DNA of 50,820 nucleotides from NCBI RefSeq assembly GCF_000275825.1, contig NZ_JH719942.1, positions 1,124,988 through 1,175,807 on the forward strand. The letters are read 5' to 3'. Numbering within the stretch: the first letter of the stretch is position 1; the number at the start of each line of letters is the position of its first letter. The notes beneath the pieces were generated by a model, which was not told the origin of the DNA, did no database searches, and was given only the letters and a program-made list of their open reading frames with translations. Below, in pieces: positions 3,754 through 41,226 of the stretch. Origin of the DNA: Saprospira grandis DSM 2844. Its GTDB lineage: Bacteria > Bacteroidota > Bacteroidia > Chitinophagales > Saprospiraceae. The translations under genes were made by a program, and so were the position numbers.

Positions 3754-3827
3754 GCTTCCATAGCTCAGTTGGTTAGAGCATCTGACTGTTAATCAGAGGG
3801 TCCCTGGTTCGAGCCCAGGTGGGAGCG
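3754..3827 (+). tRNA. tRNA-Asn (GTT)
   Basis: Cloverleaf read by eye: acceptor gcttcca/tgggagc, D-arm gctc-agttggtta-gagc, anticodon loop ctGTTaa, T-arm cctgg-ttcgagc-ccagg. CCA is not encoded. Confidence 0.85.
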
Positions 3828-3852: not shown

Positions 3853-3926
3853 GCTTCCATAGCTCAGTTGGTTAGAGCATCTGACTGTTAATCAGAGGGT
3901 CCCTGGTTCGAGCCCAGGTGGGAGCG
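3853..3926 (+). tRNA. tRNA-Asn (GTT), identical second copy
   Basis: Exact duplicate of the 3754-3827 sequence, 25 nt downstream. Confidence 0.85.
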
Positions 3927-18527: not shown

Positions 18528-18568
18528 GAAAAAAAGACCTCTATGCTTGGCGTAGAGGTCTTTTTTTT
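18528..18568. terminator. Bidirectional rho-independent terminator between rplT and the convergent GHMP kinase gene
   Basis: An A-run, then the hairpin gacctctatgcttggcgtagaggtc, then ttttttttg. Confidence 0.7.
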
Positions 18569-18587
18569 GTGTTTTGAACTTGAGTGT

Positions 18588-26300: not shown

Positions 26301-26702
26301 GTCCATGCTTTCAGAAACTTATACGAGCAGCAGGGCGGCGGTTTTGCTCCTGAGGACCTTGGCATCATCACGCCTTTTCGGGCGCAGATTGCCCAGATTC
26401 GCCATGTTTTGGCCCAATATAATATGGGCTATGAGCAGTGCAGCATTGATACGGTGGAGCGTTATCAGGGTGGGGCGCGCAAAATCATTCTCTTATCTTT
26501 GGCCATCAATATGAGTCATCAATTGCCGGCCATTGTCTCGCTTTCCGATGATGAGCAGGTAGACCGCAAGCTCAATGTGGCCCTTACTCGGGCTCGGCAG
26601 CAGTTGGTGGTTTTGGGCAATCCCAAGCTATTGGCCAATGATCCTCGTTATGCGGCCCTAATGGCATGGATTAAGGAGCGGGGCGGCTACTTTACCCCTT
26701 AG
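23319..26702 (+). CDS. PD-(D/E)xK nuclease - SF1B (Upf1/DNA2-like) helicase fusion protein, candidate Nhi-like defense enzyme
   Basis: Central nuclease motifs: GRLDLW, then IVELKSGK (ExK), then QTLLYGLL (QxxxY). C-terminal helicase motifs: I GPPGTGKT; Ia LAYTNRAVDE; II IIDEASQ; III LIGDHKQLPAV; IV QGRMHAEIARFPS; V GIITPFRAQ; VI ERYQGGARKIILLS ... NVALTRARQQLVVLGN. Confidence 0.85.
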   Translation: MQKKATEAQFFFSQLLKLQQVDQPLGAKYQALDALLVQLFLQLTEKERLHFSDRSARIAFLSHKEDLSRSVQWRIYQIIKRAKWIRRKELEPTTGQYASALKTVTFAIAALCHVPLPEELRAFLPSDEEEEQEDRNPFPIKEGIIEQLKVVVLQIDAEQELIICQPYGEGYTDQLRLRYNVPEINAQFNSTIELMQDHFPAGAILQLLHVLVEESGILLPKRIILEPDYLVDVTSIAECFQPQGASPYLFLLKKFSVYENSLPLMLGNIANRFLDLLSKNPKLGFQEEFKKLFSLNPLGFADFKDTDIRKTYHEAKNHFINLQHIILNEFPKQGIERERILLEPSFYSALYGIQGRLDLWQPPAEGDDKALIVELKSGKTFMPNKYNLNHNHYVQTLLYGLLTKSVYPSYKSLAHILYSKLQEKPLRLAPSTQFKEDEALALRNQMVMMERQLAQLDQSSLEEYGLLHQLGPAILPKASGYTARGLEEFEACFSNLSELERRYFIAFCSFIAKEQILAKTGVEGNDRANGQAGLWLSERADKDEHFELLAGLELLENNSEQEPPILRFKRTENTNPLANFRQGDIAILYPEMGQDDNVLKHQIFKGSISQINAEELCFKLYSPQCSGSVFEAAKSWSLEHDMLDKGFTVQYQSLFKFMNFHPAKRQLLLGQRAPQKSSAPQNRSFMQPYLGEDQKRILNKALDAQDYFLLVGPPGTGKTKFMLAQMVEYLHRNSQENILLLAYTNRAVDEICEAIEEVGIDDYLRMGSRYSCDPRFEHRMFSVQTEALASRKDLRATIEKHRVFVSTVSSMLNRPLLLKLKQFNTVIIDEASQILEPMLLGLLPHFQRFVLIGDHKQLPAVVLQDKEQSAVKDELLQSIGLRNRRNSLFERLFEQAQKEGWTHCYDQLQHQGRMHAEIARFPSQFFYDNKLLELPKDNPIGDWQQQPLPFRPMPQASALEQLLAQHRLLFIPSQSDYQGNSKTNEEEAIRVGELVHAFRNLYEQQGGGFAPEDLGIITPFRAQIAQIRHVLAQYNMGYEQCSIDTVERYQGGARKIILLSLAINMSHQLPAIVSLSDDEQVDRKLNVALTRARQQLVVLGNPKLLANDPRYAALMAWIKERGGYFTP

Positions 26703-26762: not shown

Positions 26763-26905
26763 TGGGGCCTGCCGCCTTTGGCGGCCGGGCCCTTACAGGG
26801 CTCGCAGTTCTGCTCGGCCCTGCGTCGCCTTCGGCTCCTTGGTCTGGCCTGCGGCCACCCTTACAGGCCCCTAGGCCGTTTGGCCTTCGGCCATAGGGCG
26901 GCTTA
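26754..26905 (+). repeat. Family A repeat, copy 11 (forward, CATCGCTAGGCC-like subtype)
   Basis: tttttttggggcctgccgcctttggcggcc...ctcgcagttctgctcggccc...ggtctggcctgcggccaccc...ggccgtttggccttcggcc. Confidence 0.8.
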
Positions 26906-26939
26906 GCTATGCTATTCGGTCTTTGTAGAACAATCGAGA

Positions 26940-27088
26940 CTGTTTAAAGTTTTCTGTTTCTCCTTTTTGCTGCCTAGAAACAAGCCCCTAGACTCGCTTT
27001 TTTAGACAGCCCTCTAAAGAGGGCCTTTGGAGAAGGTTCTTCTCTGCGATAACAACTGAACAAGGCCCAGTATATCAACAGTTGAGGC
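26940..27088. repeat. Second repeat family (element B), copy 1
   Basis: About 85% identical to 38858..39008: gtttaaagttttctgtttctcctttttgctgcctagaaacaagcccctagactcgc...cagacagccctctaaagagggcctttgga...aacaactgaacaaggcc...tatatcaacagttgaggc. Confidence 0.7.
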
Positions 27089-27093
27089 TAAGT

Positions 27094-27160
27094 AGTTTAC
27101 TTCCAGACCGAACTAGTTTACCCCCAGACCGAACTAGTTTACCCCCAGACAGAACTTTTG
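27094..27160. repeat. Short tandem repeat (about 22 bp x 3; agtttaccYccagaccgaact)
   Basis: Seen directly: two perfect units and one degenerate unit, immediately after element B copy 1. Confidence 0.7.
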
Positions 27161-27297
27161 CCTTTTTTCATTTTGTTGCGTTATTTTTATTTTTAACAAA
27201 GCTCTAACAATTAGGCATAAAAAAAGGCGCAAAACCTAGGTTTTACGCCTTTTTCGGTGGCCGAAGCGGGAGGTCTAGCTTAGAACTAGCTGTTGAT

Positions 27298-27420
27298 CGG
27301 CCTAGCGATGCGGAAGGGGGCGGCGAAGCCGCAGACCAAGGCCGTCAGGCCGCAGGGCCGAGCAGCCTTGCGAGCCCTGCAGCGTAGCGCCTGCCGCAGG
27401 CAGGAGGCCCCAAAACAAAA
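27298..27420 (-). repeat. Family A repeat, copy 12 (reverse, CATCGCTAGGCC subtype, short)
   Basis: ggcctagcgatgcggaagggggcggcgaagccgcagaccaaggccgtcaggccgcagggccgagcagccttgcgagccc...ggaggccccaaaac. Confidence 0.8.
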
Positions 27421-27472
27421 AAGGCCAGCCCCAGAGGAGCTGACCTTCGTCAGTAGTTAGTTAGCTAAGTCA

Positions 27473-30400
27473 TTAAGGCTTAACGACTTCAAAGTTCAGT
27501 TGGCTTTGCACGGCCTCGATATGAACATTGAGGTAATAAGTACCTGCGGGTAGGTTTTGGATAGCATCTAGGGTAATGAGGTCGCCGGGGCGGACTGTTT
27601 GGCTGCTGCTAAAGACCTGGCGGCCAAGCACATCTAGGAGTTTGAAATTCACTTTACTGCTAGTTTTGAGCTGGCTAAAGCGGATATTCACAAAATCGCT
27701 AGCGGGATTCGGGAAGACTGAAATATCGACACTTTCGGCTTCTGTATTATTTACTGCGCGGACTTCAGAGTACTCAAAGTCTCCGTTGAAATCGACTTGT
27801 CGTAGGCGGTAGTAAGTAGTATTCTCGTAGCTATTGTTATCGGTATAGCTATAGTAATTGGTTGTAGTGCTATTACCTTGACCTTGGACAAAATCGATTT
27901 GGCTAAAGTCGGTTTCATAGTCAAACATGCGTTCTACCTCAAAGCCTTGGTTATCTCTTTCTGTTTCGCTGGCCCAAGAGAGGAGCACTGTAGAAGAAGA
28001 CTGGCGTTCGGCATTGAAGAAGAGCCATTCGATGGGGAAATCGACATAAGTATTGGCATCGCGCCAGTCATTATCGTCGAGTCCGTCATTGTTGGGAGTT
28101 GGAGCGGTAGTACCGAGAGCGCTACCATTCACATTATCGTCGAAGATATCGGCGAGGCCATCATTATCGGCATCGATCCAGAAAGGAGAGTTAGGATCGA
28201 GGAAAGGAGGTGTTTGGTTATTGGTATAGCCATTTCCGTTGAGGTTATCTAGCCAATCGGGTAGGCCATCTCCATCGCTATCGGGATTGGGATAGTGAGC
28301 GGGATTACCGCCGTTGGCGACATAGGCTGCGGCCATTTGGATAATTTCGTCGGCGGCATTGCCATCGCCGGCGGTGGCGGTACCGAAGCCATTATCGAAG
28401 CCTTCGGCCCAGTCATAGCCGCTATCATTATCAGCATCGAGATCTAGATAATCTGCGGGAGCGCTGCCGTCATTATTATCCTCATTGGGCGTAGCGCCGA
28501 TATTTGCGCCTGTAGTTTGGTTAGCGGCATCTAGGCCTTCGTAGATATCGAGTACTCCGTTACCGTTAGCATCGGTGCCAGAAGGCGTCATGCCGAAGGT
28601 GGGGCAAGTAGAGCAAACGGCTTCTAGATAATCTGGAATACCGTCATTATCGGCATCGATATCATAGAGGTCGGCAATACCGTCGGCATCTGTATCCAAG
28701 AGATTGATAGTTCCATTTTGGAGGTCAGACCAGCCGTCGCCATTAGCGTCGGTAATGGGACCATCTTCAATTTGGCCATCGAGGGTACCGTTGCTGGGAG
28801 AATCGGTATTAGCGGCTCCGGTTACTGCGCCTGCTGCGGCTTCGACTACATCTGTAATTCCGTCATTATCGCTATCGAGATCGAGGAAATTGGGAGTAGC
28901 GTCGGCATCTGCGTTAGCATTTGGATAGCTATCGGGAGTGCCATCATTGTTATTGTCGGCGCCAGTCAAGATGAGTACGGCAGCGCTATTATCGGCGGTA
29001 CCATCATTATTGGGGTCACCGTCTAGGGCATCGGCAAAGCCATCGCCATCGGCATCGGTAAATGTATCTACGCGGCCATTGCCATCGGCATCGGTTCCAG
29101 CAGCTTCCAAGATATCTTGGATTCCATCGTTATCGCTATCGAGGTCATAGATATTGAGGAGGCCATCGGCATCGAAATCGCCATTGGGGTAAGTATCGGC
29201 TTGGCCGTCGTTGTTACTATCGGTTCCGGTAAGGATAAGAGCTTGAGCGCTATTCTCGGCGGTACCGTCATTTCCGACATCGCCATCGAGGATATCATGC
29301 AGGCCGTCGTTATCGGTATCGACAAAGTCGTCGGCAAAACCGTCTCCGTTGGTATCGGTTCCGCCAGCTTCTACCACATCGGCGATACCATCATTATCGC
29401 TATCGAGGTCATAGATATTGAGGAGACCGTCGTTATCTGCGTCGCCATTGGGATAATTATCGGGGGCACCGTCATTATTGACATCATTGCCTGTAAGGAT
29501 AAGAGCTTGAGCGCTATTCTCGGTGGTACCGTCGTTTCCGACATCGCCATCGAGGACATCATGCAGGCCGTCATTATCGGTATCGCTGAAATTATCGGCT
29601 AGGCCATCTCCGTTCGTATCGGTTCCGCCGGCTTCTACCAGATCGGTAATACCGTCATTATCGCTATCGAGGTCTAGTTGGTTGGGGATACCGTCACCAT
29701 CGACATCATTGTTAGGATAGCTATCAGCTAGGCCATCATTATTATTATCGGCGCCAGTAAGTTGGAGCGCATTAGCGGTATTTTCGGCGGTACCATCGTT
29801 TCCGACATCGCCATCAACAGCATCATGAAAACCATCGCCATCGGTATCGACAAAGTTATCGATTCGGCCATCGCCATCGGCATCAGTTCCGCCGGCTTCT
29901 ACGGCATCAGGAATACCGTCATTATCGCTATCGAGGTCATAGATATCTAAGATACCGTCAGCGTCAGAATCACCATTAAGATAACTATCGGCTAGGCCAT
30001 CATTATTATTATCGGCGCCAGTAAGTTGGAGCGCATTAGCGGTATTTTCTGCTGTGCCATCATTTCCTACATCCCCATCGACGACATCATGAAAGCCATC
30101 GCCATCGGTATCTGTAAAAGCATCTATTTGGCCATTACCGTCAGTATCTTCACCTCCAATTTCTACTAAATCAGGAATACCATCATTATCAGAATCTAGA
30201 TCTAAGCTATTCGGAATACCATCATTATCAGAATCTAAACCAGTAATTAAATTCCCGGCAGTACCGGTACCAATATAACTAACCTCCATATTAGAGATAC
30301 AAGAGGCCACTCCAGAGCAAAGAGATGGGTCTACATCTGTAGTTGTATTCATAATTATAACAACAACACCGTCGTCATTAGCGGTATTCCAAGAAGCAGT

Positions 30401-32491
30401 AGGAATACTAATAGGATTCATATCCATAGCAGGACTACCACAATTTGCATAAGCAGTATTGCTAGAATTTTGACGATTAAAAGGGCCTAAGATAGTTCCA
30501 TCCTCTAACTCTAGCGTAAAACTAGCGGCATCTGTGCCATAAGCACCCGACAAAGAAAAGGACAAAGAGGGAGCTACTGCTACATCTAAAGTATTGACAC
30601 TAAAACTAAGTGTATGGCTAGGCCCAACAGTATTCCGGCATTCATCTGAATAAGTTGCAGTAGATGCTCCACCAATCTCATCATCATAGATATCAACTAA
30701 ACCATCGCCATCTATATCTAGATCAGAGTCAACTTGGCCATCACCATCAGTATCAACTCCGCCAGCCTCTACAATATCTGGAATACCATCATTATCGGCA
30801 TCTAAGTCTACATGATCGGGAGAACCATCACCATCGGCATCAAAATTAGCACAAACACTATTAGAGATACCAGAGCAATAAGGAAAATCTACATCAGAAT
30901 AATTTGGGACACCATCGCCATCTAAGTCTCCAGAAGGATCTGGCAGACCATCTGCACAGTCCCAACCATTTACTCCCGCAAAAACATCTGCGCAGAAATT
31001 GGGATCAGCATAATCTGGTGTACCATCGCCATCATGATCTCCATTATAGATTTCTACAATATCCAGAACGCCATCATTGTCATCATCAATATCACAGGCA
31101 CTCAAAAGGTTATCTTCATCAATTTCTGTAGTATAGTTGGGGTTCTGAATAGGTACATATAAAGAAACAGATCCACCAGCAGTTCCATCAACTGATCCAT
31201 TTCTAGCACCATTAGTATGTTCACCTCCAGCACCACCATCAGAAATAAAAGTAAGATTGGTAGGTATAGAAGCCAGAGAGTATAACAAGGCTCCGCCACC
31301 GCCGCCACCACCTGGTCCATGCTCATTCGTGGTATTCAAATTTTGACCATCTCCTCCAGATACATTTACACTTAACAAGCCTTCATAAACTTGTGTTTTA
31401 AGAACAACGCTACCTCCAGCGCCTCCTCCGCCACCACCATCTGGGGCACCCACAGGATTTACAGCCACAGGAGTGGTCCCTCGAACATTGATAGTGTAGC
31501 CGTTTCCAACAATCGTATCCGCAAAAACAATTACAATTCCACCACCATCAGCAGCAGAAGAAGGGTTATTTGTAGATACCCAACCAGGTCCACCAGCACC
31601 ACCCAAGAACACTTTATCTTGAGCAAGATAGCTGTTTAAAGCAGCTCCACCTATACCTCCAGCAGGATCAACTTTATTGCACCAACGATTACCTCCATTT
31701 CCACCTTCACCATAGTTACTTCCGCCTCCTCCTCCAGAGTCACCAGAAGCACCAGAACCACCACCATTGGCCCGCTTTCCACGTCCATGGTTGGTAGCTG
31801 GATCATCTACAACAATACCACTCCCTTTTTCCCATGCTTCAATAGCTGTATTTGGTAGCGTATATTGAAGAGTTGGATCAATGGTACAGTTGTCTGGGCT
31901 TCCATTAACCGTCATTTGAATACCTTGATACCCCTTTCCTAAAAGATCAATATCCGCATTCAATACCAATTTATCCGTCACCAAGGCCAAAACCCCACCA
32001 ACACCATTCGTCTCACTCCAATCTTGAGCCGTCAAAGTAGAGTTGACCTCCACTACATTGTTTCCATAATCTGGAATCCGCACAACTTGCACCACTCCAG
32101 TTACATCATAATTCCGAATCAATGAATATTTAGGCGTCAATACATTTCCGGTAATACTCCCAATTTCAAAAAATTCATAGTTACCCGCCTCGTTAATATT
32201 CAAAATATCTCCTGAAGCAGATGTATTCGTCACATCTATATCCGCTCCCTTCATCTGAATAATCAAGGCCTTATCCCCAGCTGCAAAAGCCGAAGGGTCT
32301 TGCACCGTAATAGTATGCGCACAGGCCTGATCACAGGGATCGCATACGGGTAAATTTAACGATGTTACTGCCGTATAGTCATTGATAATCCCCCCAATGC
32401 TCACCTGAGCAATGGCAGAGCCCCCATACAACAAACAGAAAGCAAGGACAAAAACTGCCCTCCTTAAGTAGTTTGTAATTTTCACGTTCAT
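27473..32491 (-). CDS. Giant secreted calcium-binding repeat adhesin (thrombospondin type-3 repeats) with T9SS C-terminal sorting domain
   Basis: 1672 aa. It has a signal peptide, Gly-rich segments, more than 20 DxDxDGxxDxxD/DNDGIPD repeats and a C-terminal Por_Secre_tail (VFPNPASDFVNIRF...). The internal DNA units of about 270 bp are near-identical. Confidence 0.85.
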   Translation of the reverse strand: MNVKITNYLRRAVFVLAFCLLYGGSAIAQVSIGGIINDYTAVTSLNLPVCDPCDQACAHTITVQDPSAFAAGDKALIIQMKGADIDVTNTSASGDILNINEAGNYEFFEIGSITGNVLTPKYSLIRNYDVTGVVQVVRIPDYGNNVVEVNSTLTAQDWSETNGVGGVLALVTDKLVLNADIDLLGKGYQGIQMTVNGSPDNCTIDPTLQYTLPNTAIEAWEKGSGIVVDDPATNHGRGKRANGGGSGASGDSGGGGGSNYGEGGNGGNRWCNKVDPAGGIGGAALNSYLAQDKVFLGGAGGPGWVSTNNPSSAADGGGIVIVFADTIVGNGYTINVRGTTPVAVNPVGAPDGGGGGGAGGSVVLKTQVYEGLLSVNVSGGDGQNLNTTNEHGPGGGGGGGALLYSLASIPTNLTFISDGGAGGEHTNGARNGSVDGTAGGSVSLYVPIQNPNYTTEIDEDNLLSACDIDDDNDGVLDIVEIYNGDHDGDGTPDYADPNFCADVFAGVNGWDCADGLPDPSGDLDGDGVPNYSDVDFPYCSGISNSVCANFDADGDGSPDHVDLDADNDGIPDIVEAGGVDTDGDGQVDSDLDIDGDGLVDIYDDEIGGASTATYSDECRNTVGPSHTLSFSVNTLDVAVAPSLSFSLSGAYGTDAASFTLELEDGTILGPFNRQNSSNTAYANCGSPAMDMNPISIPTASWNTANDDGVVVIIMNTTTDVDPSLCSGVASCISNMEVSYIGTGTAGNLITGLDSDNDGIPNSLDLDSDNDGIPDLVEIGGEDTDGNGQIDAFTDTDGDGFHDVVDGDVGNDGTAENTANALQLTGADNNNDGLADSYLNGDSDADGILDIYDLDSDNDGIPDAVEAGGTDADGDGRIDNFVDTDGDGFHDAVDGDVGNDGTAENTANALQLTGADNNNDGLADSYPNNDVDGDGIPNQLDLDSDNDGITDLVEAGGTDTNGDGLADNFSDTDNDGLHDVLDGDVGNDGTTENSAQALILTGNDVNNDGAPDNYPNGDADNDGLLNIYDLDSDNDGIADVVEAGGTDTNGDGFADDFVDTDNDGLHDILDGDVGNDGTAENSAQALILTGTDSNNDGQADTYPNGDFDADGLLNIYDLDSDNDGIQDILEAAGTDADGNGRVDTFTDADGDGFADALDGDPNNDGTADNSAAVLILTGADNNNDGTPDSYPNANADADATPNFLDLDSDNDGITDVVEAAAGAVTGAANTDSPSNGTLDGQIEDGPITDANGDGWSDLQNGTINLLDTDADGIADLYDIDADNDGIPDYLEAVCSTCPTFGMTPSGTDANGNGVLDIYEGLDAANQTTGANIGATPNEDNNDGSAPADYLDLDADNDSGYDWAEGFDNGFGTATAGDGNAADEIIQMAAAYVANGGNPAHYPNPDSDGDGLPDWLDNLNGNGYTNNQTPPFLDPNSPFWIDADNDGLADIFDDNVNGSALGTTAPTPNNDGLDDNDWRDANTYVDFPIEWLFFNAERQSSSTVLLSWASETERDNQGFEVERMFDYETDFSQIDFVQGQGNSTTTNYYSYTDNNSYENTTYYRLRQVDFNGDFEYSEVRAVNNTEAESVDISVFPNPASDFVNIRFSQLKTSSKVNFKLLDVLGRQVFSSSQTVRPGDLITLDAIQNLPAGTYYLNVHIEAVQSQLNFEVVKP

Positions 32492-32536
32492 CTAAATGCT
32501 GTTAAAATGTGTTTGATAAAATGCTTATGTAATTTA

Positions 32537-32690
32537 TTTTTGGGGCTGCCCCGCCCTGCGGGCGGGTCGGGCTGTGTCGCAGCTCGCTACTCGCTCGGCC
32601 CTGCAGCAGCAAAGCTGCTTGGGTCTGCCGCCTTCGGCGGCCCTGCTTTCCATCCCTCAGCCAGTCGCTTCGCTCCTTAAAGAATAACTC
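32537..32690 (+). repeat. Family A repeat, copy 13 (forward, CATCCCTCAGCC subtype)
   Basis: ttttggggctgccccgccctgcgggcgggtcgggctgtgtcgcagctcgctactcgctcggccc... It lies 46 nt upstream of the adhesin start codon. Confidence 0.85.
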
Positions 32691-33149
32691 CTAGCTTTTT
32701 ACTCCATCCAATCTGTATGCGCCCTAAAAAGAGCACAAATATATACTTCTTTATTAGCTCTAGTCAATATAAAAATTAAACTCATTGCGTAATAAAATTA
32801 TTTTGACGGCAAAAAAAAACCAATATCTCCAAATAAAAAATCAAACAACCTCTATTTTACAGTTTTTTATACTACCTTAAGCTAGAACCTAAATTTATTT
32901 CAGTAATAAATTCAACTCATACAAGAGATCACTTTGCTCTGAAAAGTCACTTTTTTTAGCTCTTATTTTTATATATTTTTTTCTTAAAGCTTAATTCTTG
33001 TCAAGGATAAGTCGCTATACCGTTTATTGCCCATATTTCTACGGTAAAATTACTAGACACTTTGCCTCTTTTATTGCCCTCTCTGCCCTTACGACTATTT
33101 TGTACCTACGGACTTCAAAACAGAAATAAAAACCTGATAATCAAAAAAA

Positions 33150-33195
33150 AAGGGTGGACAGCTATTTAAATAGCTTGCCCCAAGCGGCTTCTTTT
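33150..33195 (-). terminator. Probable terminator downstream of the OmpA-family gene
   Basis: The palindrome agctatttaaatagct is followed on the minus strand by gtccaccctttttttttg. Confidence 0.4.
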
Positions 33196-33200
33196 GGTCC

Positions 33201-35141
33201 CTAACGATTAAGGATAATGATTTCTACCTTTCGCTTTTGGTGTTTGGCCATATTGCTTTCTATTACGCCTCGGCCATCGGTAGTAATTTGGGCGCTTGTA
33301 ATGCCCAGTTCTTTCATAAACTTGGTGACATAACCCGCCCGCTTCTGCGAAAGGGATAAATTGAACTCCTTATCCCCCACATCATCGGCAAAGCCTGTTA
33401 CCTGAATTTTTAGATTTTCAGGATCTTCAAATTGCTCTAGTAGTTTTTGTATTTGCTCCTTTTGCAGCTCGCTCAAATCATATTTTCCCGTCTCAAAGTA
33501 GACCGATAGGTTTTTGCGCAAACGAGGCTTTGGCGGCTCGGCCATTACGGGCTCTTCTTCAGGGAGTTTTCCGTTGGGGCTTAGTTGTACATCTATTCGC
33601 TTGATCGCTTCTCCAGCCGCTCGCTCAAAATAGTCGGCCCCAATAAAGTTATCATAGCCCTCTTTAGAAATAATATAGGAGTAAGAAGCTCCACTAGGCA
33701 AACAAAGAAAAAACCGGCCCGCCTTATCTGTTTCAAAGATGCCAATATTTTCGCCTTCATTTCTCAGGCGAACTCTGGCTCCTGCCAAAGGTTCGGAGCT
33801 GGCTTCATCATAGAGGTAGCCATCCAAAAATACATGTTCTACGGCAGGGGCCATAGCGGCGGGGATATGGCAGCTATAAAGGTCCAAACCGCCTTTTCCT
33901 TCAGGTCGATCAGAAGAAAAGTAGGCATACTCGCCATCAGGAGAGACCACAATGCCCGCTTCTCGGAAGGGAGAGTTGACGCCCTCGCCCATATTTACTG
34001 GTCTAGACCATTCTCCATTTTCTAATAATAAGGTCCGAAAAGCATCGGCTTCGCCCAATCCCGGATGTCCATCAGACACAAAGTAAAGGGTTTGGCCATC
34101 TGGAGCAATAAAAGGGGCTTCTTCATCTCCTTCCGTATTGATTTTTGGTCCAAGATTTTCGGGAACGCCCCAGCGGCCATTGGCCATTAGGTCAGAAACC
34201 CAGATATCGCTACCGCCAAATCCTCCTTCTCTAGTAGAGACAAAGTACATTTTATAGCCATCGCAACTAATAGAGGGTTGAGAGTCCCAGGCTTCGCTAT
34301 TGAGGCCTACTGCTGGCCCCACGCTATCTACAATTTCATTTTCGCTATCATATTCGGCCACATAAATATCGCAGCCACCCTGCACATTTTCCCAGGCACA
34401 GGCGGCAAAGAAAATCCGTCGACCACAAACCGTAAACTTGGCCATACCTTCATTATAAGGCGTATTGATGGCTGGTCCAATAGATTTTGGCGATTTCCAT
34501 TCGCCTTTATCGTTTTTGCGCAGCATCAGAATATCTTCATCTCCCGAGCGGTTAGAGGTATAGAGGAGCATATCGCCATTGGCCCTCAAGGTGGGCAAAA
34601 ACTCATCAAATTTGGAGTTGGCCATGCCGGGCAAAAGCTCGGCCTTGCCCGTAGAGCCGGTATATTCCATTTCTATAGCATATTCGCAGCTCTTAATATT
34701 TCGGTCCAAATACGCATCGTAATTTCGGGCGGCACCTTCTTCCTTGATGCTATAGTTTTTGGGGTCTGCATATTTATAGAGCTCAAAGTACTCTAAGGCT
34801 TTGATATAGTTATAGGCTTTCATCTGTAGTTCGGCGGCCTCAAAATAGGCGGCTCTAGACAAGAGTGGATTTTGCTTAAAGAGCCGTTCATAGGCCATTC
34901 TGGCCGTTTCATAATCGCCTGTTTCTTTGGCCACCACCCCTAGCAAGCGCTGAGCCGCAGCAAAGTTGGGCTTTTGCTTAACCGCCTGTTTTAGACTAGC
35001 TGTTGCTGCCTCATATTTGGCATTATTAAAATAGTATTCGGCATCTTCCATATGTTCTTTGGCCGATTTGCGCAGGGGCTGGCCCCTAAGACTGAGGCTA
35101 CAGAAGAGCAGCAAAAAAAGGAGGTGTATAGCTTTCATCAT
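33201..35141 (-). CDS. OmpA-family protein with TPR repeats and TolB-like beta-propeller region
   Basis: Signal peptide, then N-terminal TPR-like helices, then a C-terminal OmpA/MotB peptidoglycan-binding domain (FADDVGDKEFNLSLSQKRAGYV). Confidence 0.8.
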   Translation of the reverse strand: MMKAIHLLFLLLFCSLSLRGQPLRKSAKEHMEDAEYYFNNAKYEAATASLKQAVKQKPNFAAAQRLLGVVAKETGDYETARMAYERLFKQNPLLSRAAYFEAAELQMKAYNYIKALEYFELYKYADPKNYSIKEEGAARNYDAYLDRNIKSCEYAIEMEYTGSTGKAELLPGMANSKFDEFLPTLRANGDMLLYTSNRSGDEDILMLRKNDKGEWKSPKSIGPAINTPYNEGMAKFTVCGRRIFFAACAWENVQGGCDIYVAEYDSENEIVDSVGPAVGLNSEAWDSQPSISCDGYKMYFVSTREGGFGGSDIWVSDLMANGRWGVPENLGPKINTEGDEEAPFIAPDGQTLYFVSDGHPGLGEADAFRTLLLENGEWSRPVNMGEGVNSPFREAGIVVSPDGEYAYFSSDRPEGKGGLDLYSCHIPAAMAPAVEHVFLDGYLYDEASSEPLAGARVRLRNEGENIGIFETDKAGRFFLCLPSGASYSYIISKEGYDNFIGADYFERAAGEAIKRIDVQLSPNGKLPEEEPVMAEPPKPRLRKNLSVYFETGKYDLSELQKEQIQKLLEQFEDPENLKIQVTGFADDVGDKEFNLSLSQKRAGYVTKFMKELGITSAQITTDGRGVIESNMAKHQKRKVEIIILNR

Positions 35142-37320: not shown

Positions 37321-37893
37321 ATGGATATTTCAATTGCGGCCCTTCGGGCTGGAGACCAAAGCGCCTACAAAGCCCTCTATGAACAGGCCTATTGGTATTG
37401 TGCTAGTTATTTGCTCCAACAGGGCGCCCAAGAAACCGATGCCAAAGCTACTTTTAATCGGGCCCTAGAGATTTTTTGGACCAAAATGCAAACGCCCGAT
37501 TTCGAGCTCAGTTGCCAACCCAAAACTTATCTCTATGCCGTTTGCCGAAACCTCTGGCTCAAACAGCTCCGCAAACGAAAGAAAAACCCCATCCTCCAAG
37601 ATGAGGAACGCCTGCTGCAAGAGCCCCTCCCCCATTTGGTCCAAGAAGAGGTCTATTTTTTAGAGGAAGAAGAGGCCGACCCCCTACTTATGACCGCCAT
37701 GAAAGCCCTAAGTAGCATGAAGAATACCGATTGCCAAAAAGTGCTGGAGCTCTACTATTTTGAGAAGAAGTCGCATCGAGAAATTGAGCAAATTATGGGC
37801 TTTGCCGATAATTACTCTAAGGTCAAGAAAAATAGCTGTATCAAACAGCTCAAAAAACAATTGCTGCGCCTACTGGGCCAGCCCAAAGCTTAA
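37321..37893 (+). CDS. ECF-type RNA polymerase sigma-70 family factor
   Basis: A region-2-like segment (YLYAVCRNLWLKQLRK) and a region-4 HTH (KSHREIEQIMGFADNYSKVKKNSCIKQLK). The start is taken at MDISIAAL. Confidence 0.8.
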   Translation: MDISIAALRAGDQSAYKALYEQAYWYCASYLLQQGAQETDAKATFNRALEIFWTKMQTPDFELSCQPKTYLYAVCRNLWLKQLRKRKKNPILQDEERLLQEPLPHLVQEEVYFLEEEEADPLLMTAMKALSSMKNTDCQKVLELYYFEKKSHREIEQIMGFADNYSKVKKNSCIKQLKKQLLRLLGQPKA

Positions 37894-37897
37894 ACTT

Positions 37898-38788
37898 ATG
37901 GATTTTCATAGCCCCGAATGGCTGGATGCTTTCCAGCAAAACCAACTCTCTGCCGAAGAGCGAGCCGCTACCCTTGCCTTGGCCCAAAAAGATGCCGCCT
38001 ATGCCGCCGAGCTGCAGGCGCATGGCATCGCTATCCAAGCTATTCAGGATTTTAGCCGCCAAAGCGCTGTAGAAAAAATGGCCCAAGAACTAGATGAGGA
38101 AGGCCTTTTTGAACGCCCCATAGAACAAGCCCTACAGACTCAAGCCGCCCAAAAACAAATTGGCCAAATTGCCCAAGAATTAGAAGCAGAAGGCTTTTTT
38201 GCCCAAAAGGAAGAAAAAGAAAAAGAGGTTAAGGTTCGCCCCCTCCCCCGCTGGCGCCCAATTATGGGTATTGCCGCTAGCCTAATTTTATTAGTGAGTC
38301 TGGGCTATTGGTGGCAGAAGTCGCAAAGCCTACCCAGCTGGTCTCAAGAATACGCTATCGCCAGTGCAGAGTCTACCCAAAAGGAGTTACAACTGCTTTT
38401 AGGCGCCCAAGGCTTTGGCCAAAATGAAGAAGCCCTCAGACAGTTGCAGCTCGGCCTCAATGCTTATGAGAAAAAGGATTGGACCAAAGCTAAAACAGAA
38501 TTGCTGGCCTACCAAAAGGCCAATTCTATCTTTGCCCAAGAAGAAACCCAGTTTTATCTGGGCCATATCGCTTTTGAGCAAGGAGAGCTAGGCAGCGCAA
38601 AATCCTACTGGCAAGAGCTGGCCCAATTGCCTAGCCTGCCCCCCCATATTTCCGAAAAACTCCCTTGGTATCAGGCGCTCTTGGCCCTACGCGAAAACCA
38701 AAAAGAACTGGCCAAAAGCTACCTGAAAAAGGTGCCCCAAGGCCCCTATCAAGAAAAAGCAAAAGAGCTCTTGCAAACACTAGAGTAA
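37898..38788 (+). CDS. Putative anti-sigma factor (single-pass membrane protein with TPR-like C-terminus)
   Basis: It sits immediately downstream of the ECF sigma gene (4-nt gap), has one TM helix (IMGIAASLILLVSLGYWW) and a periplasmic TPR-like C-terminal region. The start is taken at MDFHSPEW rather than the overlapping upstream frame. Confidence 0.6.
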   Translation: MDFHSPEWLDAFQQNQLSAEERAATLALAQKDAAYAAELQAHGIAIQAIQDFSRQSAVEKMAQELDEEGLFERPIEQALQTQAAQKQIGQIAQELEAEGFFAQKEEKEKEVKVRPLPRWRPIMGIAASLILLVSLGYWWQKSQSLPSWSQEYAIASAESTQKELQLLLGAQGFGQNEEALRQLQLGLNAYEKKDWTKAKTELLAYQKANSIFAQEETQFYLGHIAFEQGELGSAKSYWQELAQLPSLPPHISEKLPWYQALLALRENQKELAKSYLKKVPQGPYQEKAKELLQTLE

Positions 38789-38857
38789 TATAAGGCCTTG
38801 CTCCTTAGTAGAATATTAGATGATCCCCTCCTCGGAGGGGATTTGAGCCTGTTTAAA

Positions 38858-39050
38858 ATTTTGTGTTTCTCCTTTTTGCTGCCTAGGGACAAGCCCCTAG
38901 GCTAGCTTTTTCAGACAGCCCTCTAAAGAGGGCCTTTGGATGAGGTTTTTCTCTGTGACAACAACTGAACAAGGCCTTGTATATCAATAGTTGAGGCCCT
39001 CGCAGAGGGCTGACTCCATTGGATTAGCCTAGGGGCTTGTCCCTGGGCGA
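38858..39050. repeat. Second repeat family (element B), copy 2, with 21-bp terminal inverted repeats
   Basis: About 85% identical to 26940..27088. The internal inverted repeat is ctgcctagggacaagcccctaggct ... agcctaggggcttgtccctgg. There are internal hairpins (gccctctaaagagggc; gccctcgcagagggc). Confidence 0.7.
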
Positions 39051-39137
39051 CTATTGGCCAAATCCCAACAAGCTAAAGGCCCAAATTTTATTCTAATACA
39101 CAAAATCCTGAACAGTCCCAGGGATTTTTTTTGTGCC

Positions 39138-39484
39138 CTATTCGACAGAGATCAAACAGCTCATCAAAGTCTTGATGCCCTATTCGACAGAGATCTAATA
39201 CCCCATCAAAGGCTTGATGCCCTATTCGACAGAGATCTAATACCCCATCAAAGGCTTGATGCCCTAGTTGACAGAGATCAAACAGCCCATCAAAGGCTTG
39301 ATGCCCTAGTTGACAGAGATCTAATACCCCATAAAAGGCTTGATGCCCTAGTTGACAGAGATCAAATACCCTATAAAAGGCTTGATGCCCTAGTTGACAG
39401 AGATCAAATACCCCATCAAAGGCTTGATGCCCTATTCGACAGAGATCTAACAGCTCATCAAAGGCTTGATGCCCTAGTTGGTCC
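39138..39484. repeat. 42-bp tandem repeat array (8 full units plus a partial unit), frame-preserving
   Basis: The units begin at 39138, 39180, 39222, 39264, 39306, 39348, 39390 and 39432. Consensus: ctaKtYgacagagatcWaaYaSCYcatMaaaGKcttgatgcc. There are no interspersed unique spacers. Confidence 0.9.
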
Positions 39485-39520
39485 AAAAACAAAAGGGGCT
39501 GCTCGATATCGAGCAGCCCC
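39480..39520 (-). terminator. Rho-independent terminator downstream of the outer-membrane protein gene
   Basis: The perfect palindrome ggggctgctcgatatcgagcagcccc is followed on the minus strand by ttttgtttttgg. Confidence 0.7.
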
Positions 39521-39543
39521 TTTGCAGCAGGTCCTAAGTCATC

Positions 39544-41226
39544 TTAGAACTTAGCCATTACACCAATTTTTCCATTGATGCCCAATTGCTGATAGAGGTA
39601 CCAGCGTTGGTATTTATTATTGAGCAAATTATTGCCTTCTACAAAGAAAGCAAAGCGTTGTTGCTCTCCTTTTCCGAGCCAGTAAGTAGCATTGAGGTTA
39701 AGGTCAAACAAGCCGCCAAGAGTTTCGCTTTCGGTGCCCAAGGCAGGGAGATAAGGCACGCCCGCATTGACAAAGAGGTCGGCCCCAACTTCTAGATTGC
39801 CTTTTTTGTATGTCAGGCCAAAGCTAGACTCCAAAACAGGCAGATGATAAGCCACTTCAGCCGTTCCGCCACTATAGTTATTAAAGGCCAAAGCGCCTTT
39901 AAAGTAGAGTTCCTCCATAATTTGGAGTTCTACATCTGCGGCCAGGGTTAGGCGGCTGAGCGTATCATAGGCCAGACCAAATTTCAGATAATTGCTTTCT
40001 GTGGTATTATAGAAAAGGGGTTGTTGGCTCAAATTGGCATAAGAGACATTAAAGTCGTAGCCTAGGCGCTTAATCTTCCCTTTGAGTCCCCCATAAAAGC
40101 GGCTTTCTTGCGTATGTTCCCAATGCAGGCGCTCTGTATCTAAGAAAGGATTATAAGTAGAGAGCTGCATGAGGGTATTTTCACGGATGCTGCCCGACCA
40201 ACCTGCATAGGGAATAAATTGGCCCCCTAAAACGGCATAGCTCAACTCAATATCGGGCAAAACGAAAAACTGTCCGGCATTGCTTCCTAAGCGGGCGCCT
40301 AGACGGCTCTTAAAGTTGCCAAAATTGAGGTCGGCTCCAGCATGCAATTGGGCCAGGCTGCGGCTTTGGCTGCTATCGGTGGTGGTATAGCGGCTATACA
40401 GCAGCTCGGCATTGGCAAAGAGGCGATGTTGAGGGCTGCGGCTATTGCCCAACCATTTTTCAAAAACAAGGCGGGGGCGGATATTGAGCTCGCCAACGCC
40501 ATGATAAGAAGTGGTGTTATAGAGGTCCAGATCGGCTCTATAGTTCATCTCTTGTTTATTACTTTTGGCATTGAAGAGATGAATATTGGCCCCTATTGTA
40601 AGGTAGCGTTGTTTGAGGCTATCTTCGGCTAGGCCAGAGCTATCTTGGGCAAAGGGATAGAGGCTATCGCCTAGGTTTTCGAGGAGTTGGTGGTAGCCAT
40701 AGTAGCGATAATTATTGAGGTCCATATTTAGGGCGCCGCCAATGGCTAGGCCATTAGGCAGAAAATAATCGCCTTGTAGATTTACTGAGGTTTCGCCAAA
40801 AACTTGGTCCTCTAAGTTACCTTGGCTACTATGGTGTTTGGCTGTAGCTCCAAAGCTAAACTTATCGCTATTGCTATTGTGGTAAGAGAGTTCTAGCAAA
40901 GGGGAAAGAGGGAAACCAATGCCCGCCTTTGTATAAAAGTGGAGACTTTTGGGGGGCTTAGGCACCGGCATAGCCAGTGGGCGGATATTAGGTTCTGGAT
41001 AATTGACCGAGACGATCCGTTCGGGGACCAGATAGGTCAATTTTTGGCCAGCGGTGGTATCCAAATCGGCTAAAAGAGGCTGAGCCTCCTGCTTTTTACT
41101 TTCGGCCAATTGGGCCTTAAAGGGTTTGACTAGCTCGGTCCCTACATCATTGATTTGGGCCTTTAGGTTGGGGGCAAAAAGCCCAACAGCCAAAGCTAAA
41201 CAAAGAGATTTACTATATTTTATCAT
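39544..41226 (-). CDS. Outer-membrane beta-barrel protein (hypothetical)
   Basis: Signal peptide (MIKYSKSLCLALAVGLFAPNLKAQ), alternating amphipathic beta-strand pattern and a C-terminal aromatic residue (…GVMAKF). Confidence 0.6.
   Translation of the reverse strand: MIKYSKSLCLALAVGLFAPNLKAQINDVGTELVKPFKAQLAESKKQEAQPLLADLDTTAGQKLTYLVPERIVSVNYPEPNIRPLAMPVPKPPKSLHFYTKAGIGFPLSPLLELSYHNSNSDKFSFGATAKHHSSQGNLEDQVFGETSVNLQGDYFLPNGLAIGGALNMDLNNYRYYGYHQLLENLGDSLYPFAQDSSGLAEDSLKQRYLTIGANIHLFNAKSNKQEMNYRADLDLYNTTSYHGVGELNIRPRLVFEKWLGNSRSPQHRLFANAELLYSRYTTTDSSQSRSLAQLHAGADLNFGNFKSRLGARLGSNAGQFFVLPDIELSYAVLGGQFIPYAGWSGSIRENTLMQLSTYNPFLDTERLHWEHTQESRFYGGLKGKIKRLGYDFNVSYANLSQQPLFYNTTESNYLKFGLAYDTLSRLTLAADVELQIMEELYFKGALAFNNYSGGTAEVAYHLPVLESSFGLTYKKGNLEVGADLFVNAGVPYLPALGTESETLGGLFDLNLNATYWLGKGEQQRFAFFVEGNNLLNNKYQRWYLYQQLGINGKIGVMAKF

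What the first reader, a model, noticed from the sequence alone, without database searches (positions are those of the whole stretch)
38858..39050. A second dispersed element of about 150 bp (two copies), one with perfect 21-bp terminal inverted repeats (MITE-like or small-RNA gene)
26940-27088 and 38858-39008 are about 85% identical. Both follow a gene 3' end and a family A repeat or terminator. Copy 2 continues to 39050, where agcctaggggcttgtccctgg is the exact inverted complement of cctagggacaagcccctaggct at 38879-38902. The TIR would be the first 21 nt of the arm. Copy 1 lacks the distal arm. Both contain the conserved internal hairpin gccctctaaagagggc and the motif aacaactgaacaaggcc. Each copy is followed by a tandem repeat: the 22-bp x 3 repeat after copy 1 and the 42-bp x 8 repeat after copy 2. 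This could be a non-autonomous transposable element or a structured non-coding RNA locus.
Basis: seen in the sequence. Interest (0 to 1): 0.55.

Follow-up and report, generated by a model that had tools for sequence, protein, structure and literature searches.

The report
New palindromic MITE family in Saprospira
The two similar ~150-bp stretches are one complete (275 bp) copy and one half copy of a small non-coding mobile element (a MITE) found in Saprospira genomes, present at a given site in some strains and absent in others; it is real and apparently undescribed, but an ordinary kind of element.

Summary
The window is Saprospira grandis DNA. The repeat is real: 26936-27088 and 38845-38997 are 89.5% identical over 153 nt without gaps. 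Comparison with S. grandis WHT, Saprospira sp. CCB-QB6 and metagenome contigs gives the true element. Copy 2 is 38845-39119 (275 bp). It has imperfect 21-bp TIRs (GAGCCTGTTTAAAATTTTGTG / CACAAAATCCTGAACAGTCCC) and an 8-bp target duplication (GGGGATTT / AGGGATTT). It sits in the T-run of a terminator hairpin. WHT and one metagenome contig have the exact empty site. CCB-QB6 has a 129-bp short form about 60 bp away with a perfect 8-bp duplication. WHT has another short copy at rplT that this window lacks. A 93%-identical full-length copy lies at an unrelated locus. Copy 1 is only the left 56% of the element, with a decayed H1. There is no Rfam match, and the shared core has no fold signal (z = +0.09). 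The whole element folds as a palindrome on both strands (z about -9 and -8). Verdict: a new MITE family with IS5-type termini (GAGACTGTT, as in ISPg4). Unexplained: 21/42-bp tandem arrays with unrelated units repeatedly abut these elements.

The parts
38845..39119 (+). Copy 2: complete long-form element, 275 bp. Module order: L (left end) - H1 - H2 - M - H2' - H1' - R (right end).
   Evidence: Exactly this stretch plus one TSD copy is missing from the orthologous site in S. grandis WHT (L029) and in metagenome contig L019. It is 93% identical over 275 nt to a copy at an unrelated locus, L024. It folds as a whole-element palindrome, z = -8.9 on + and -8.0 on -.
38845..38865 (+). Left terminal inverted repeat, GAGCCTGTTTAAAATTTTGTG
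   Evidence: It pairs with 39099-39119 at 16 of 21 positions. The same terminus occurs in 8 other family members. The CCB-QB6 copy has 18 of 21.
39099..39119 (+). Right terminal inverted repeat, CACAAAATCCTGAACAGTCCC
   Evidence: It is conserved in L024 and L018 (right-end alignment).
38837..38844 (.). Target-site duplication, left copy GGGGATTT. This is the end of the T1 terminator stem plus the start of its T-run.
   Evidence: The empty sites read GGAGGGGATTTTTTTTTG. The filled site reads GGAGGGGATTT[element]AGGGATTTTTTTTG.
39120..39127 (.). Target-site duplication, right copy AGGGATTT (7 of 8 identical to the left copy)
38881..38902 (+). H1: internal 22-nt palindrome GCCTAGGGACAAGCCCCTAGGC (8-bp stem).
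   Evidence: The consensus scan flags it as terminator-like. It is the most conserved module of the family.
39026..39047 (+). H1': inverted second copy of H1.
   Evidence: 21 of 22 complementary to 38882-38903. It is absent from the short forms, which keep a single H1.
38918..38933 (+). H2 hairpin, GCCCTCTAAAGAGGGC
   Evidence: It is also present in copy 1, L024, L026 and L027.
38996..39010 (+). H2': inverted counterpart of H2, GCCCTCGCAGAGGGC
26936..27088 (+). Copy 1: left 153 nt only (L-H1-H2-M), truncated just before H2'. H1 is decayed to GCCTAGAAACAAGCCCCTAGAC. There is no right TIR.
   Evidence: (no right TIR within 1.5 kb). It lies 45 bp inside a 6.3-kb strain-variable segment, 26891-33177, which is absent from WHT.
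38823..38842 (+). T1: terminator hairpin of the upstream TPR-like gene. The element split its T-run. It is the target, not part of the element.
39134..39478 (.). 42-bp x 8.2 tandem array, 14 nt after the right TSD. It is adjacent to the element, not part of it.
   Evidence: Copy number at this site is 1.2 units in WHT, at least 2.4 units on either side of an N gap in L019 (which has no element), and about 0.7 units in CCB-QB6.
27093..27156 (.). 21-bp x 3.0 tandem array, starting 5 nt after the truncation point of copy 1

Best explanation
[quoted passage not shown] The master form is a non-coding palindromic element of about 275 bp: L - H1 - H2 - M - H2' - H1' - R. It has imperfect 21-bp terminal inverted repeats (consensus GAGACTGTTTAAAATTTTGTG ... 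CACAAAATCCTGAACAGTCTC). Short forms of 105-130 bp keep both ends and a single H1 but lack the middle.

Shown: the element is inserted with an 8-bp target-site duplication into A/T-rich sequence next to hairpins. Two sites are the T-run of an intrinsic terminator and one is a stop codon. Its presence differs between strains at the same site. Window copy 2 (38845-39119) is a complete insertion into the T-run of the terminator of the upstream gene. Window copy 1 (26936-27088) is a dead left half.

Inferred: it is mobilised in trans by a DDE transposase encoded elsewhere in the genome, probably of the IS5 family. The terminal 9 nt, GAGACTGTT/AACAGTCTC, equal those of ISPg4 and MITE464 of Porphyromonas gingivalis. 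Also inferred: short forms arise by deletion between the two H1 palindromes, and the element has no host function beyond possibly supplying hairpins (H1 is terminator-like) where it disrupts a terminator.
For: (1) Precise presence/absence. Window 38845-39429 is missing from S. grandis WHT. The junction there is exactly one copy of GGGGATTT followed by the T-run. Metagenome contig L019 shows the same.
(2) 8-bp TSDs. They are GAGTAAAG/GAGTAAAG (8/8) around the CCB-QB6 short form, GGGGATTT/AGGGATTT (7/8) around copy 2, TTTTTGTT/TTTTTGTG (7/8) around the WHT rplT copy, and 5/8 at L024.
(3) TIRs of 16-18 of 21 in all three complete copies.
(4) Independent insertions. Within one orthologous intergenic region, CCB-QB6 has the insertion at the stop codon and DSM 2844 has it after T1. 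WHT has a copy beside the rplT terminator where this window has none.
(5) Dispersal. Family members are found at the window (2), L018, L029, L024, L025/L021, L023/L032, L028/L034, L026, L027 and L033 (2).
(6) All copies are intergenic. The element has no ORF over 47 aa, and differences between the copies show no codon periodicity.
(7) Palindromic fold on both strands: z = -8.9 and -8.0 for the long form, -5.6 for the short form.
(8) The termini match IS5-family ISPg4 and MITE464 TIRs as listed in PMC4596501, Table 2.
Against: No partner transposase was found. The window has no transposase gene, and there is no long-spaced TIR pair in 275 kb of held Saprospira DNA. Copy number per genome was not measured, because the one genome-collection scan returned only chance hits. 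More than half of the family members are solo left ends or H1/H2 fragments. H1-like and T1-like hairpins also occur on their own, so part of the pattern could be REP/BIME-like mosaicism rather than transposition. The TIRs are imperfect (3-5 mismatches in 21). One TSD is weak (5/8). The empty site for the WHT rplT copy is not clean, since 16 nt in the window replace 112 nt. The 8-bp TSD is not the commonest length for the IS5 family.
Confidence: 0.85

Rival explanations
1. REP/BIME/REPIN-like repeat. H1, H2 and related hairpins would be short palindromic units spread by a RAYT (IS200/IS605-like) transposase, or shuffled by recombination into mosaic intergenic clusters. The 'element' would be just one common arrangement of these units.
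For: H1+H2 occur without the left end in L027 and with a degenerate left end in L026. H1 occurs alone at the L034 site where L028 has L+H1. H1-like CCTAGGGCCAAGGCCCTAGG plus T1-like hairpins recur in L018, L033 and L034. The H1 loop is flipped in some copies. In the long form, the inverted H1/H2 pair resembles a REPIN doublet.
Against: REPINs leave no target-site duplication and have no TIRs outside the palindromes. Here three insertions carry 7-8 of 8 matching 8-bp duplications. The whole unit L-H1-(...)-R is what is present or absent. No GTAG-type REP head is present. No RAYT gene was seen in the held DNA, though none was searched for specifically.
Confidence: 0.06
2. Functional leader-plus-array unit. 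The conserved element would act as a leader or promoter, or as the recognition site of a machinery that creates or maintains the adjacent 21/42-bp tandem arrays. This would be loosely like a CRISPR leader, or the leader-minisatellite-tail layout of BrickBuilt.
For: Arrays of period 21, 42 or 22/44 with unrelated unit sequences lie on the R side of the element at six loci: window copy 1, window copy 2, L024, L032, L025 and L033. In the unbiased window, the only two intergenic arrays with at least 3 units both abut the two copies. BrickBuilt is a precedent in Bacteroidetes (PMC4596501).
Against: The 42-bp array at the copy-2 site exists without the element in L019, and as a single unit in WHT. 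L031 has an array and no element. The WHT rplT copy, the CCB-QB6 copy, L026 and L027 have no adjacent array. The arrays have no spacers. No promoter-like site was found in the element.
Confidence: 0.05
3. Small structured non-coding RNA gene, present in two paralogous copies.
For: There are conserved hairpins H1 and H2. Both copies are intergenic and in the same orientation. H1 followed by TTTTT looks like a terminator.
Against: No Rfam family matches at gathering threshold or at E<=10 with any plausible hit. The shared 153-nt core has z = +0.09. The fold of the full element is strand-symmetric. H1 is destroyed in copy 1 by three uncompensated changes, and the stems are otherwise invariant, so there is no covariation. 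The sequence is absent from the orthologous sites of the type strain. No sigma-70-like promoter was found.
Confidence: 0.03
4. Local segmental duplication of about 150 bp within this region, with no mobility.
For: The window has only two copies, 11.9 kb apart, in direct orientation.
Against: Copies at unrelated loci exist in other Saprospira genomes and metagenomes. One is 93% identical and full length (L024). TSDs and empty sites are also present.
Confidence: 0.01

Closest known systems
MITE464/MITEPgRS and its partner ISPg4 (IS5 family) of Porphyromonas gingivalis (PMC4596501, Table 2)
   Same: Same phylum (Bacteroidota). Both are small non-coding intergenic elements with TIRs. The outermost 9 nt of the termini are identical: GAGACTGTT / AACAGTCTC.
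   Different: Beyond nt 9 the TIRs differ (GCA versus TAAAATTTTGTG), and there is no internal similarity. The TSD here is 8 bp. A Saprospira partner IS has not been identified, so derivation from an IS5-family element is a resemblance, not a tested result.
BrickBuilt MITE of P. gingivalis (leader - 23-nt minisatellite - tail; PMC4596501)
   Same: It is a Bacteroidota MITE with GAGAC-type termini that is physically associated with a spacer-less minisatellite. Many of its copies are partial (leader only or tail only), always intergenic, and vary between strains.
   Different: In BrickBuilt the minisatellite lies between the TIRs and has the same 23-nt unit in every copy. Here the arrays lie outside the TIRs of complete copies, their units are unrelated in sequence, their period is 21 or 42 nt, and they can exist without the element.
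Correia elements (CREE/NEMIS) of Neisseria
   Same: They are palindromic MITEs of about 100-155 bp with long and short forms that differ by an internal deletion. They are intergenic, fold into a long hairpin, and can provide or disrupt terminators and promoters (from my own knowledge of the family).
   Different: Correia elements duplicate TA, have 26-bp TIRs of unrelated sequence, occur in hundreds of copies and carry an IHF site. Here the duplication is 8 bp and the copy number is unknown.
REP / BIME / REPIN elements mobilised by RAYT transposases
   Same: They have short GC-rich palindromes downstream of genes, mosaic combinations of hairpin modules, and inverted doublets.
   Different: They have no TIRs outside the palindrome and no target duplication. 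REPs have a conserved GTAG head and a linked RAYT gene. These features are absent here or were not found.
ERIC/IRU and pneumococcal BOX/RUP repeats
   Same: They are imperfect palindromes of about 100-130 bp, or modular intergenic repeats, with size variants.
   Different: Their sequences are unrelated and their hosts are different. RUP duplicates TA, and ERIC has no demonstrated TSD or partner transposase.

Membership tests
MITE (non-autonomous class II element) | Small (about 50-1000 bp) and without coding capacity for a transposase | tested here: met
   Sizes are 275 bp (long form) and 105-129 bp (short forms). The longest ORF touching the element is 47 aa, none has an ATG start, and the differences between copies show no codon periodicity.
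MITE (non-autonomous class II element) | Terminal inverted repeats | tested here: met
   The TIRs are 21 bp and imperfect: 16/21 in window copy 2, 18/21 in L018, and about 17/21 in L024.
MITE (non-autonomous class II element) | Target-site duplication of fixed length | tested here: met
   The TSD is 8 bp: 8/8 (L018), 7/8 (window copy 2), 7/8 (L029 rplT copy) and 5/8 (L024).
MITE (non-autonomous class II element) | Insertion polymorphism with an intact empty site in relatives | tested here: met
   WHT (L029) and L019 have the exact empty site for copy 2. DSM 2844, WHT and L019 are empty at the CCB-QB6 site. DSM 2844 lacks the WHT rplT copy, though that site is not perfectly clean.
MITE (non-autonomous class II element) | Multiple dispersed copies per genome | tested here: inconclusive
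   At least 10 loci were found across several genomes and metagenomes: 2 in this 50.8-kb window and 4 or more in about 105 kb of WHT. No whole genome could be scanned (one search returned only chance hits).
MITE (non-autonomous class II element) | A partner autonomous IS with matching TIRs in the same genome | not testable with these tools
   No transposase gene lies in the window, and there is no long-spaced TIR pair in 275 kb. The complete Saprospira genomes could only be read in 20-kb pieces.
IS5-family-derived MITE | Termini of the GAGAC(C/T)nTT type shared with an IS5-family IS | tested here: met
   GAGACTGTT / AACAGTCTC equals the ISPg4 termini in PMC4596501, Table 2. Only 9 nt match, and the comparison is with another genus.
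IS5-family-derived MITE | TSD length as produced by the partner's subgroup | not tested
   The partner is unknown. An 8-bp TSD is found in only some IS5 subgroups (my own knowledge of ISfinder groupings, not checked here).
REP/REPIN (RAYT-mobilised) | No TSD; the mobile unit is the palindrome or doublet itself | tested here: not met
   TSDs are present, and the mobile unit includes the non-palindromic L and R ends.
REP/REPIN (RAYT-mobilised) | A linked RAYT gene and a conserved GTAG head | not tested
   No GTAG head is present in H1 or H2 (direct reading). The genomes were not searched for a RAYT gene.
Known structured RNA family (Rfam) | Covariance-model match at the gathering score | tested here: not met
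   Only two tRNAs match in the whole window. Nothing plausible appears in 38700-39600 even at E<=10.
Structured ncRNA in general | Thermodynamic or covariation support specific to one strand | tested here: not met
   The shared core has z = +0.09. The full element is equally stable on both strands. The stems are either invariant or broken, with no compensatory pairs.
CRISPR array (for the adjacent tandem repeats) | Repeats separated by unique spacers | tested here: not met
   The units are head to tail with no spacers.

The most novel reading that the evidence does not exclude
Saprospira intergenic regions undergo a sequence-independent process that amplifies arbitrary local DNA into tandem arrays with a fixed 42-bp period (or 21 bp, i.e. 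four or two helical turns). This process would be mechanistically linked to the MITE or its transposase. One possibility is repeated staggered cleavage or abortive insertion at the R side of the element. Another is that both target the same CTAG-containing structure. Six arrays at element loci have periods of 21, 42, 42, 42, 42 and 22/44. There are five or more unrelated unit sequences, copy numbers differ between strains (about 0.7 to 8 units at the copy-2 site), and even the unit that is amplified differs at the same locus (L024 versus L031).
Probability: 0.12. Interest if true: 0.6.

Novelty: new member of a known kind. Interest (0 to 1): 0.3.

Why it matters
It adds an undescribed MITE family to a little-studied lineage of Bacteroidota, the predatory gliding Saprospira. 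It fixes the element's true ends, target duplication and variants, so the family can be masked or annotated in Saprospira genomes. It would also help explain spurious small ORFs and contig breaks in metagenome assemblies. The insertions into terminator T-runs and the rapid turnover between strains of one species make these elements useful strain markers, and a possible source of differences in transcription termination. The practical result for the scan is negative for an sRNA and positive for an ordinary selfish element. The one point that may deserve more attention is the recurrent, unexplained association with fixed-period (42-bp) minisatellites of unrelated sequence.

Tried and rejected
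(1) The genome-contig scan with the 18-mer CCCTCTAAAGAGGGCCTT gave 14 hits, all in unrelated phyla, about the number expected by chance.
(2) Exact look-ups of window proteins, and of the 100%-identical P0001, found no contig. The source genome's DNA is not retrievable. Relatives were reached through cluster members instead.
(3) Rfam at the gathering score and at E<=10 gave nothing relevant.
(4) The viral-contig scan and the phage and plasmid BLAST searches gave no match. The element is therefore not phage- or plasmid-borne in those collections.
(5) I looked for a right TIR downstream of copy 1 and of the solo left ends (L025, L021, L023, L026) and found none.
(6) I tested whether array units share sequence. 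No alignment exceeded the shuffled controls.
(7) I considered the element as att sites of an 11.9-kb island between the two copies. I rejected this because the copies are only 89.5% identical, copy 1 is truncated, the genes between are housekeeping genes, and copy 2 is a simple insertion relative to WHT.
(8) I considered peptide coding of the 42-bp array (14-aa repeat, ORF 39054-39554). I rejected this because the ORF starts inside the MITE, has no ATG and no Pfam hit, and unit number ranges from about 0.7 to 8 between strains.
(9) A literature search found nothing on Saprospira repeats or on 42-bp tandem repeats.
(10) Searching the protein database with the 34-aa ORFs inside the element was considered and not run, because such short TTG-start ORFs are unlikely to have been called as genes.

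Full report
SOURCE AND CONTEXT. The 646-aa OmpA/PD40 protein encoded at 33201-35141(-) is 100% identical to a Saprospira grandis protein on a 4,422,561-bp contig, the DSM 2844 assembly. The gene content fits a Bacteroidota member: a T9SS C-terminal sorting domain, TPR proteins and others. Both copies of the flagged repeat lie in convergent intergenic regions. Copy 1 lies between a helicase gene (23319-26702, +) and a 1672-aa T9SS cargo gene (27473-32491, -). Copy 2 lies between a TPR-like gene (37760-38788, +) and a 560-aa gene (39544-41226, -).

CHECK OF THE OBSERVATION. The repeat is real. Positions 26936-27088 and 38845-38997 align without gaps at 89.5% identity over 153 nt. BLAST and profile searches find no third copy in the window. 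Some details need correction:
- Copy 2 of the shared core is 38845-38997, not 38858-39008.
- Identity is about 90%, not about 85%.
- The array after copy 1 has period 21 (x3.0), and the array after copy 2 has period 42 (x8.2).
- The inverted repeat is 38882-38903 versus 39026-39047, 21 of 22 with 19 consecutive exact matches. It is the core of a 55-nt inverted repeat at 78.6%.
- Neither arm is at an end of the conserved sequence.

WHAT RELATIVES SHOW. The source genome could not be fetched. The single genome-collection scan gave only chance hits. Members of the OmpA protein's 90% cluster gave access to the syntenic region in three relatives:
- Saprospira sp. CCB-QB6 (L018).
- S. grandis WHT, CP110854 (L029; genome described in PMC10508125).
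- A metagenome scaffold (L019).

At the copy-2 site, WHT reads ...GGAGGGGATTTTTTTTTGTCCCCTATTCGATAGAGATC..., which is terminator hairpin T1, its T-run and one 42-bp unit. L019 reads the same, with several 42-bp units. The window reads ...GGAGGGGATTT | GAGCCTG...(275 bp)...CAGTCCC | AGGGATTTTTTTTGTGCCCTATTCGACAGAGATC. The element is therefore 38845-39119. It is flanked by GGGGATTT and AGGGATTT and was inserted into the T-run of T1. A megablast of L029 against the window confirms this: homology breaks at 38844 and resumes at 39430, so the extra DNA is the element, one TSD copy and seven more array units.

The ends are inverted repeats: GAGCCTGTTTAAAATTTTGTG and CACAAAATCCTGAACAGTCCC, 16 of 21.

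CCB-QB6 has a 129-bp short form in the same intergenic region but about 60 bp upstream, right at the stop codon of the TPR-like gene. It reads GAGTAAAG | GAGACTGTTTAAAATTTTGTG...H1...CACAAAATCCTGAACAGTCTC | GAGTAAAG. The 8-bp duplication is perfect and the TIRs match at 18 of 21. The short form lacks window positions 38904-39027. The other three strains are empty at that position. These are two independent insertions of one family.

MORE FAMILY MEMBERS. A metagenome scan with the H1 pattern GCCTAGRRACAAGCCCCTAGRC (about 1 chance hit expected) returned 8 loci. Seven are Saprospira-like. Their flanking proteins cluster at 90% or more with proteins of S. grandis or CCB-QB6.
- L024 carries a full-length copy, 272 bp and 93% identical to copy 2, between unrelated flanks.
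- L025/L021 (an orthologous pair), L023 and L028 carry the left end plus H1.
- L026 and L027 carry H1+H2.
- WHT carries a 105-112-bp short form beside the rplT terminator, again in a T-run, flanked by TTTTTGTT/TTTTTGTG. This window has only 16 nt there.
- Further WHT pieces hold a left end at the L023 locus (L032), two or three fragments in L033, and an H1-only remnant at the L028 locus (L034).
- Profile searches over 193 kb, and later 275 kb, of held Saprospira DNA found no additional copy in the window and no pair of TIRs far enough apart to enclose a transposase gene.

ANATOMY. The left-end and right-end alignments give the module order L (36 nt, includes the TIR) - H1 (22-nt palindrome, 8-bp stem) - H2 (GCCCTC-loop-GAGGGC) - M (about 60 nt) - H2' - H1' - R (about 72 nt, includes the TIR).
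- The long form is a near-perfect palindrome. The RNA-parameter MFE is -121 kcal/mol with z = -8.9 on the + strand and z = -8.0 on the - strand.
- The short form has z = -5.6.
- The 153-nt core shared by the two window copies (L-H1-H2-M) has z = +0.09.
- The short forms keep one H1. CCB-QB6 has the H1 loop orientation and the WHT rplT copy has the H1' orientation. This fits independent internal deletions between the two palindromes; that step is inferred.
- Copy 1 stops exactly where H2' would begin and has no right TIR within 1.5 kb.
- H1 in copy 1 carries three uncompensated changes, GCCTAGAA...CCCTAGAC.
- Copy 1 sits 45 bp inside a 6.3-kb segment (26891-33177, including the T9SS cargo gene) that WHT replaces with 136 bp. 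CCB-QB6 has unrelated filler in place of 26900-27473.
- Copy 1 is a decaying fragment.

MECHANISM. Shown: the element has TIRs and 8-bp TSDs, exact empty sites exist, there are independent insertions in sister strains, copies are dispersed, and there is no coding capacity. These are the defining features of a MITE (definition as summarised in PMC4596501).

Inferred: it is mobilised in trans by a DDE transposase. No transposase is encoded in the window. The outermost 9 nt, GAGACTGTT / AACAGTCTC, are identical to those of ISPg4 (IS5 family) and MITE464 of Porphyromonas gingivalis as tabulated by Klein et al. (PMC4596501, Table 2). An IS5-family partner is therefore the best guess, but this rests on resemblance only.

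Target choice appears to favour A/T-rich 8-mers next to hairpins. Two sites are terminator T-runs, one is a stop codon just before a terminator, and one follows a small hairpin in L024. At copy 2 the insertion leaves T1 with only three T residues. The element brings H1 followed by TAGCTTTTT, which the consensus scan scores as terminator-like. The right end plus TSD also recreates a weak hairpin and T-run. Whether termination is affected is untested.

RIVALS. A structured sRNA is not supported. Rfam gives no match. The core has no fold signal, and the full element's fold signal is strand-symmetric. There is no covariation. The sequence is absent from the type strain at both sites. A simple local duplication is refuted by the dispersed copies. 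A REP/BIME/REPIN-type system deserves some weight, because H1, H2 and other conserved hairpins also occur alone and in mosaics (a T1-like ATCCCCTCC...GGAGGGGAT hairpin, an H1-like CCTAGGGCCAAGGCCCTAGG hairpin, and CTGTAGGTTGAAACCTACAG). However, REPINs do not make TSDs and do not carry non-palindromic terminal segments.

THE TANDEM ARRAYS. The arrays are not part of the element. L019 has the 42-bp array without the element, and WHT has a single unit. Even so, arrays with period 21, 42 or 22/44 recur on the R side of family members:
- Window 27093-27156: 21 x 3, starting 5 nt after the truncation point of copy 1.
- Window 39134-39478: 42 x 8.2.
- L024: 42 x 6.5 or more, starting at the element's end.
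- L032: 42 x 9.6, starting 20 nt after a left end truncated within H1. The metagenome ortholog L023 has about 190 nt of unique DNA instead.
- L025: 22/44.
- L033: 42 x 15.6, lying 215 nt from a degenerate left end.

L031 (CCB-QB6), the ortholog of the L024 locus, has a 42 x 6.9 array of yet another unit and no element. L024 keeps one diverged unit of that array on the other side of the element. The units are unrelated in sequence, except that the L031 and L033 units resemble each other although the loci differ. Five of six unit types contain CTAG, which occurs twice in H1.

The shared preference of MITE and arrays for the stretch just after a terminator explains part of the adjacency. The constant 42-bp period across unrelated sequences is not explained. 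BrickBuilt of P. gingivalis is the nearest precedent: a MITE with a leader, an internal 23-nt minisatellite and a tail. There, however, the unit is constant and lies inside the TIRs.

VERDICT. The MITE reading is right in kind but wrong in its TIRs and extent. The sRNA reading is not supported. This is a new family of a well-known kind of element, so interest is modest (0.3). The array association is recorded as an open observation.

Noticed in passing
window 39134-39478 and 27093-27156; L024 1-272; L031 11604-11891; L032 10997-11400; L033 18682-19335; L025 1278-1360: Spacer-less tandem arrays with a fixed period of 42 bp (or 21, 22/44) and unrelated unit sequences. They are highly variable between strains in copy number, and even in which local sequence is amplified. 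They recur next to the MITE. Five of six unit types contain CTAG. The cause of the constant 42-bp period is unexplained.
   Followed up: partly
It is built of short stem-loops with variable loops (e.g. GGCCAGACC...GCCGAGCAGACCTGCGAGC). It is far more abundant than the MITE and also present in WHT and CCB-QB6.
   Followed up: no
window 26891-33177: A 6.3-kb strain-variable segment holding copy 1, the 21-bp array, a GC-rich repeat and the 1672-aa T9SS cargo gene with 264-bp internal repeats. S. grandis WHT replaces it with 136 bp, so that the helicase and OmpA genes are adjacent. CCB-QB6 has a 2451-aa version of the gene.
   Followed up: partly
window 18568-18583 versus L029 20495-20606: Where WHT has a short MITE copy beside the rplT terminator, this window has 16 nt (GTTTTGAACTTGAG...). 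These weakly resemble the element's left terminus in the same position and orientation. This may be a deletion remnant or footprint.
   Followed up: partly
window 38823-38842; L018 20658-20714; L033 11812-11880; L034 11088-11146: The T1 terminator hairpin (ATCCCCTCC-loop-GGAGGGGAT plus T-run) is itself a recurring module. It is often paired with an H1-like palindrome, CCTAGGGCCAAGGCCCTAGG. Another recurring hairpin is CTGTAGGTTGAAACCTACAG. Saprospira intergenic DNA looks like a mosaic of several hairpin families.
   Followed up: no
window 3754-3827 and 3853-3926: Two tandem tRNA genes with identical Rfam scores (70.2 bits), 25 nt apart. They are probably a tandem duplicate.
   Followed up: no
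CCB-QB6 orthologs of L021, L023, L024, L027, L028 (proteins WCL81672-WCL81877, locus tags PPO43_01080-02035): Five of seven metagenome element loci map to a stretch of about 200 genes in the CCB-QB6 genome. This could be regional clustering of the MITE or a sampling effect of metagenome coverage.
   Followed up: no
L031 11604-11891 and L033 18682-19335; L024 left flank (oriented) just before the element: The 42-bp unit CTTTACAA(A/T)TGCCATT.CACAAAT...AATAGC.TCCCC occurs as arrays at two non-orthologous loci in two genomes, and as a single unit next to the L024 MITE. At least one array unit type is therefore itself dispersed.
   Followed up: partly
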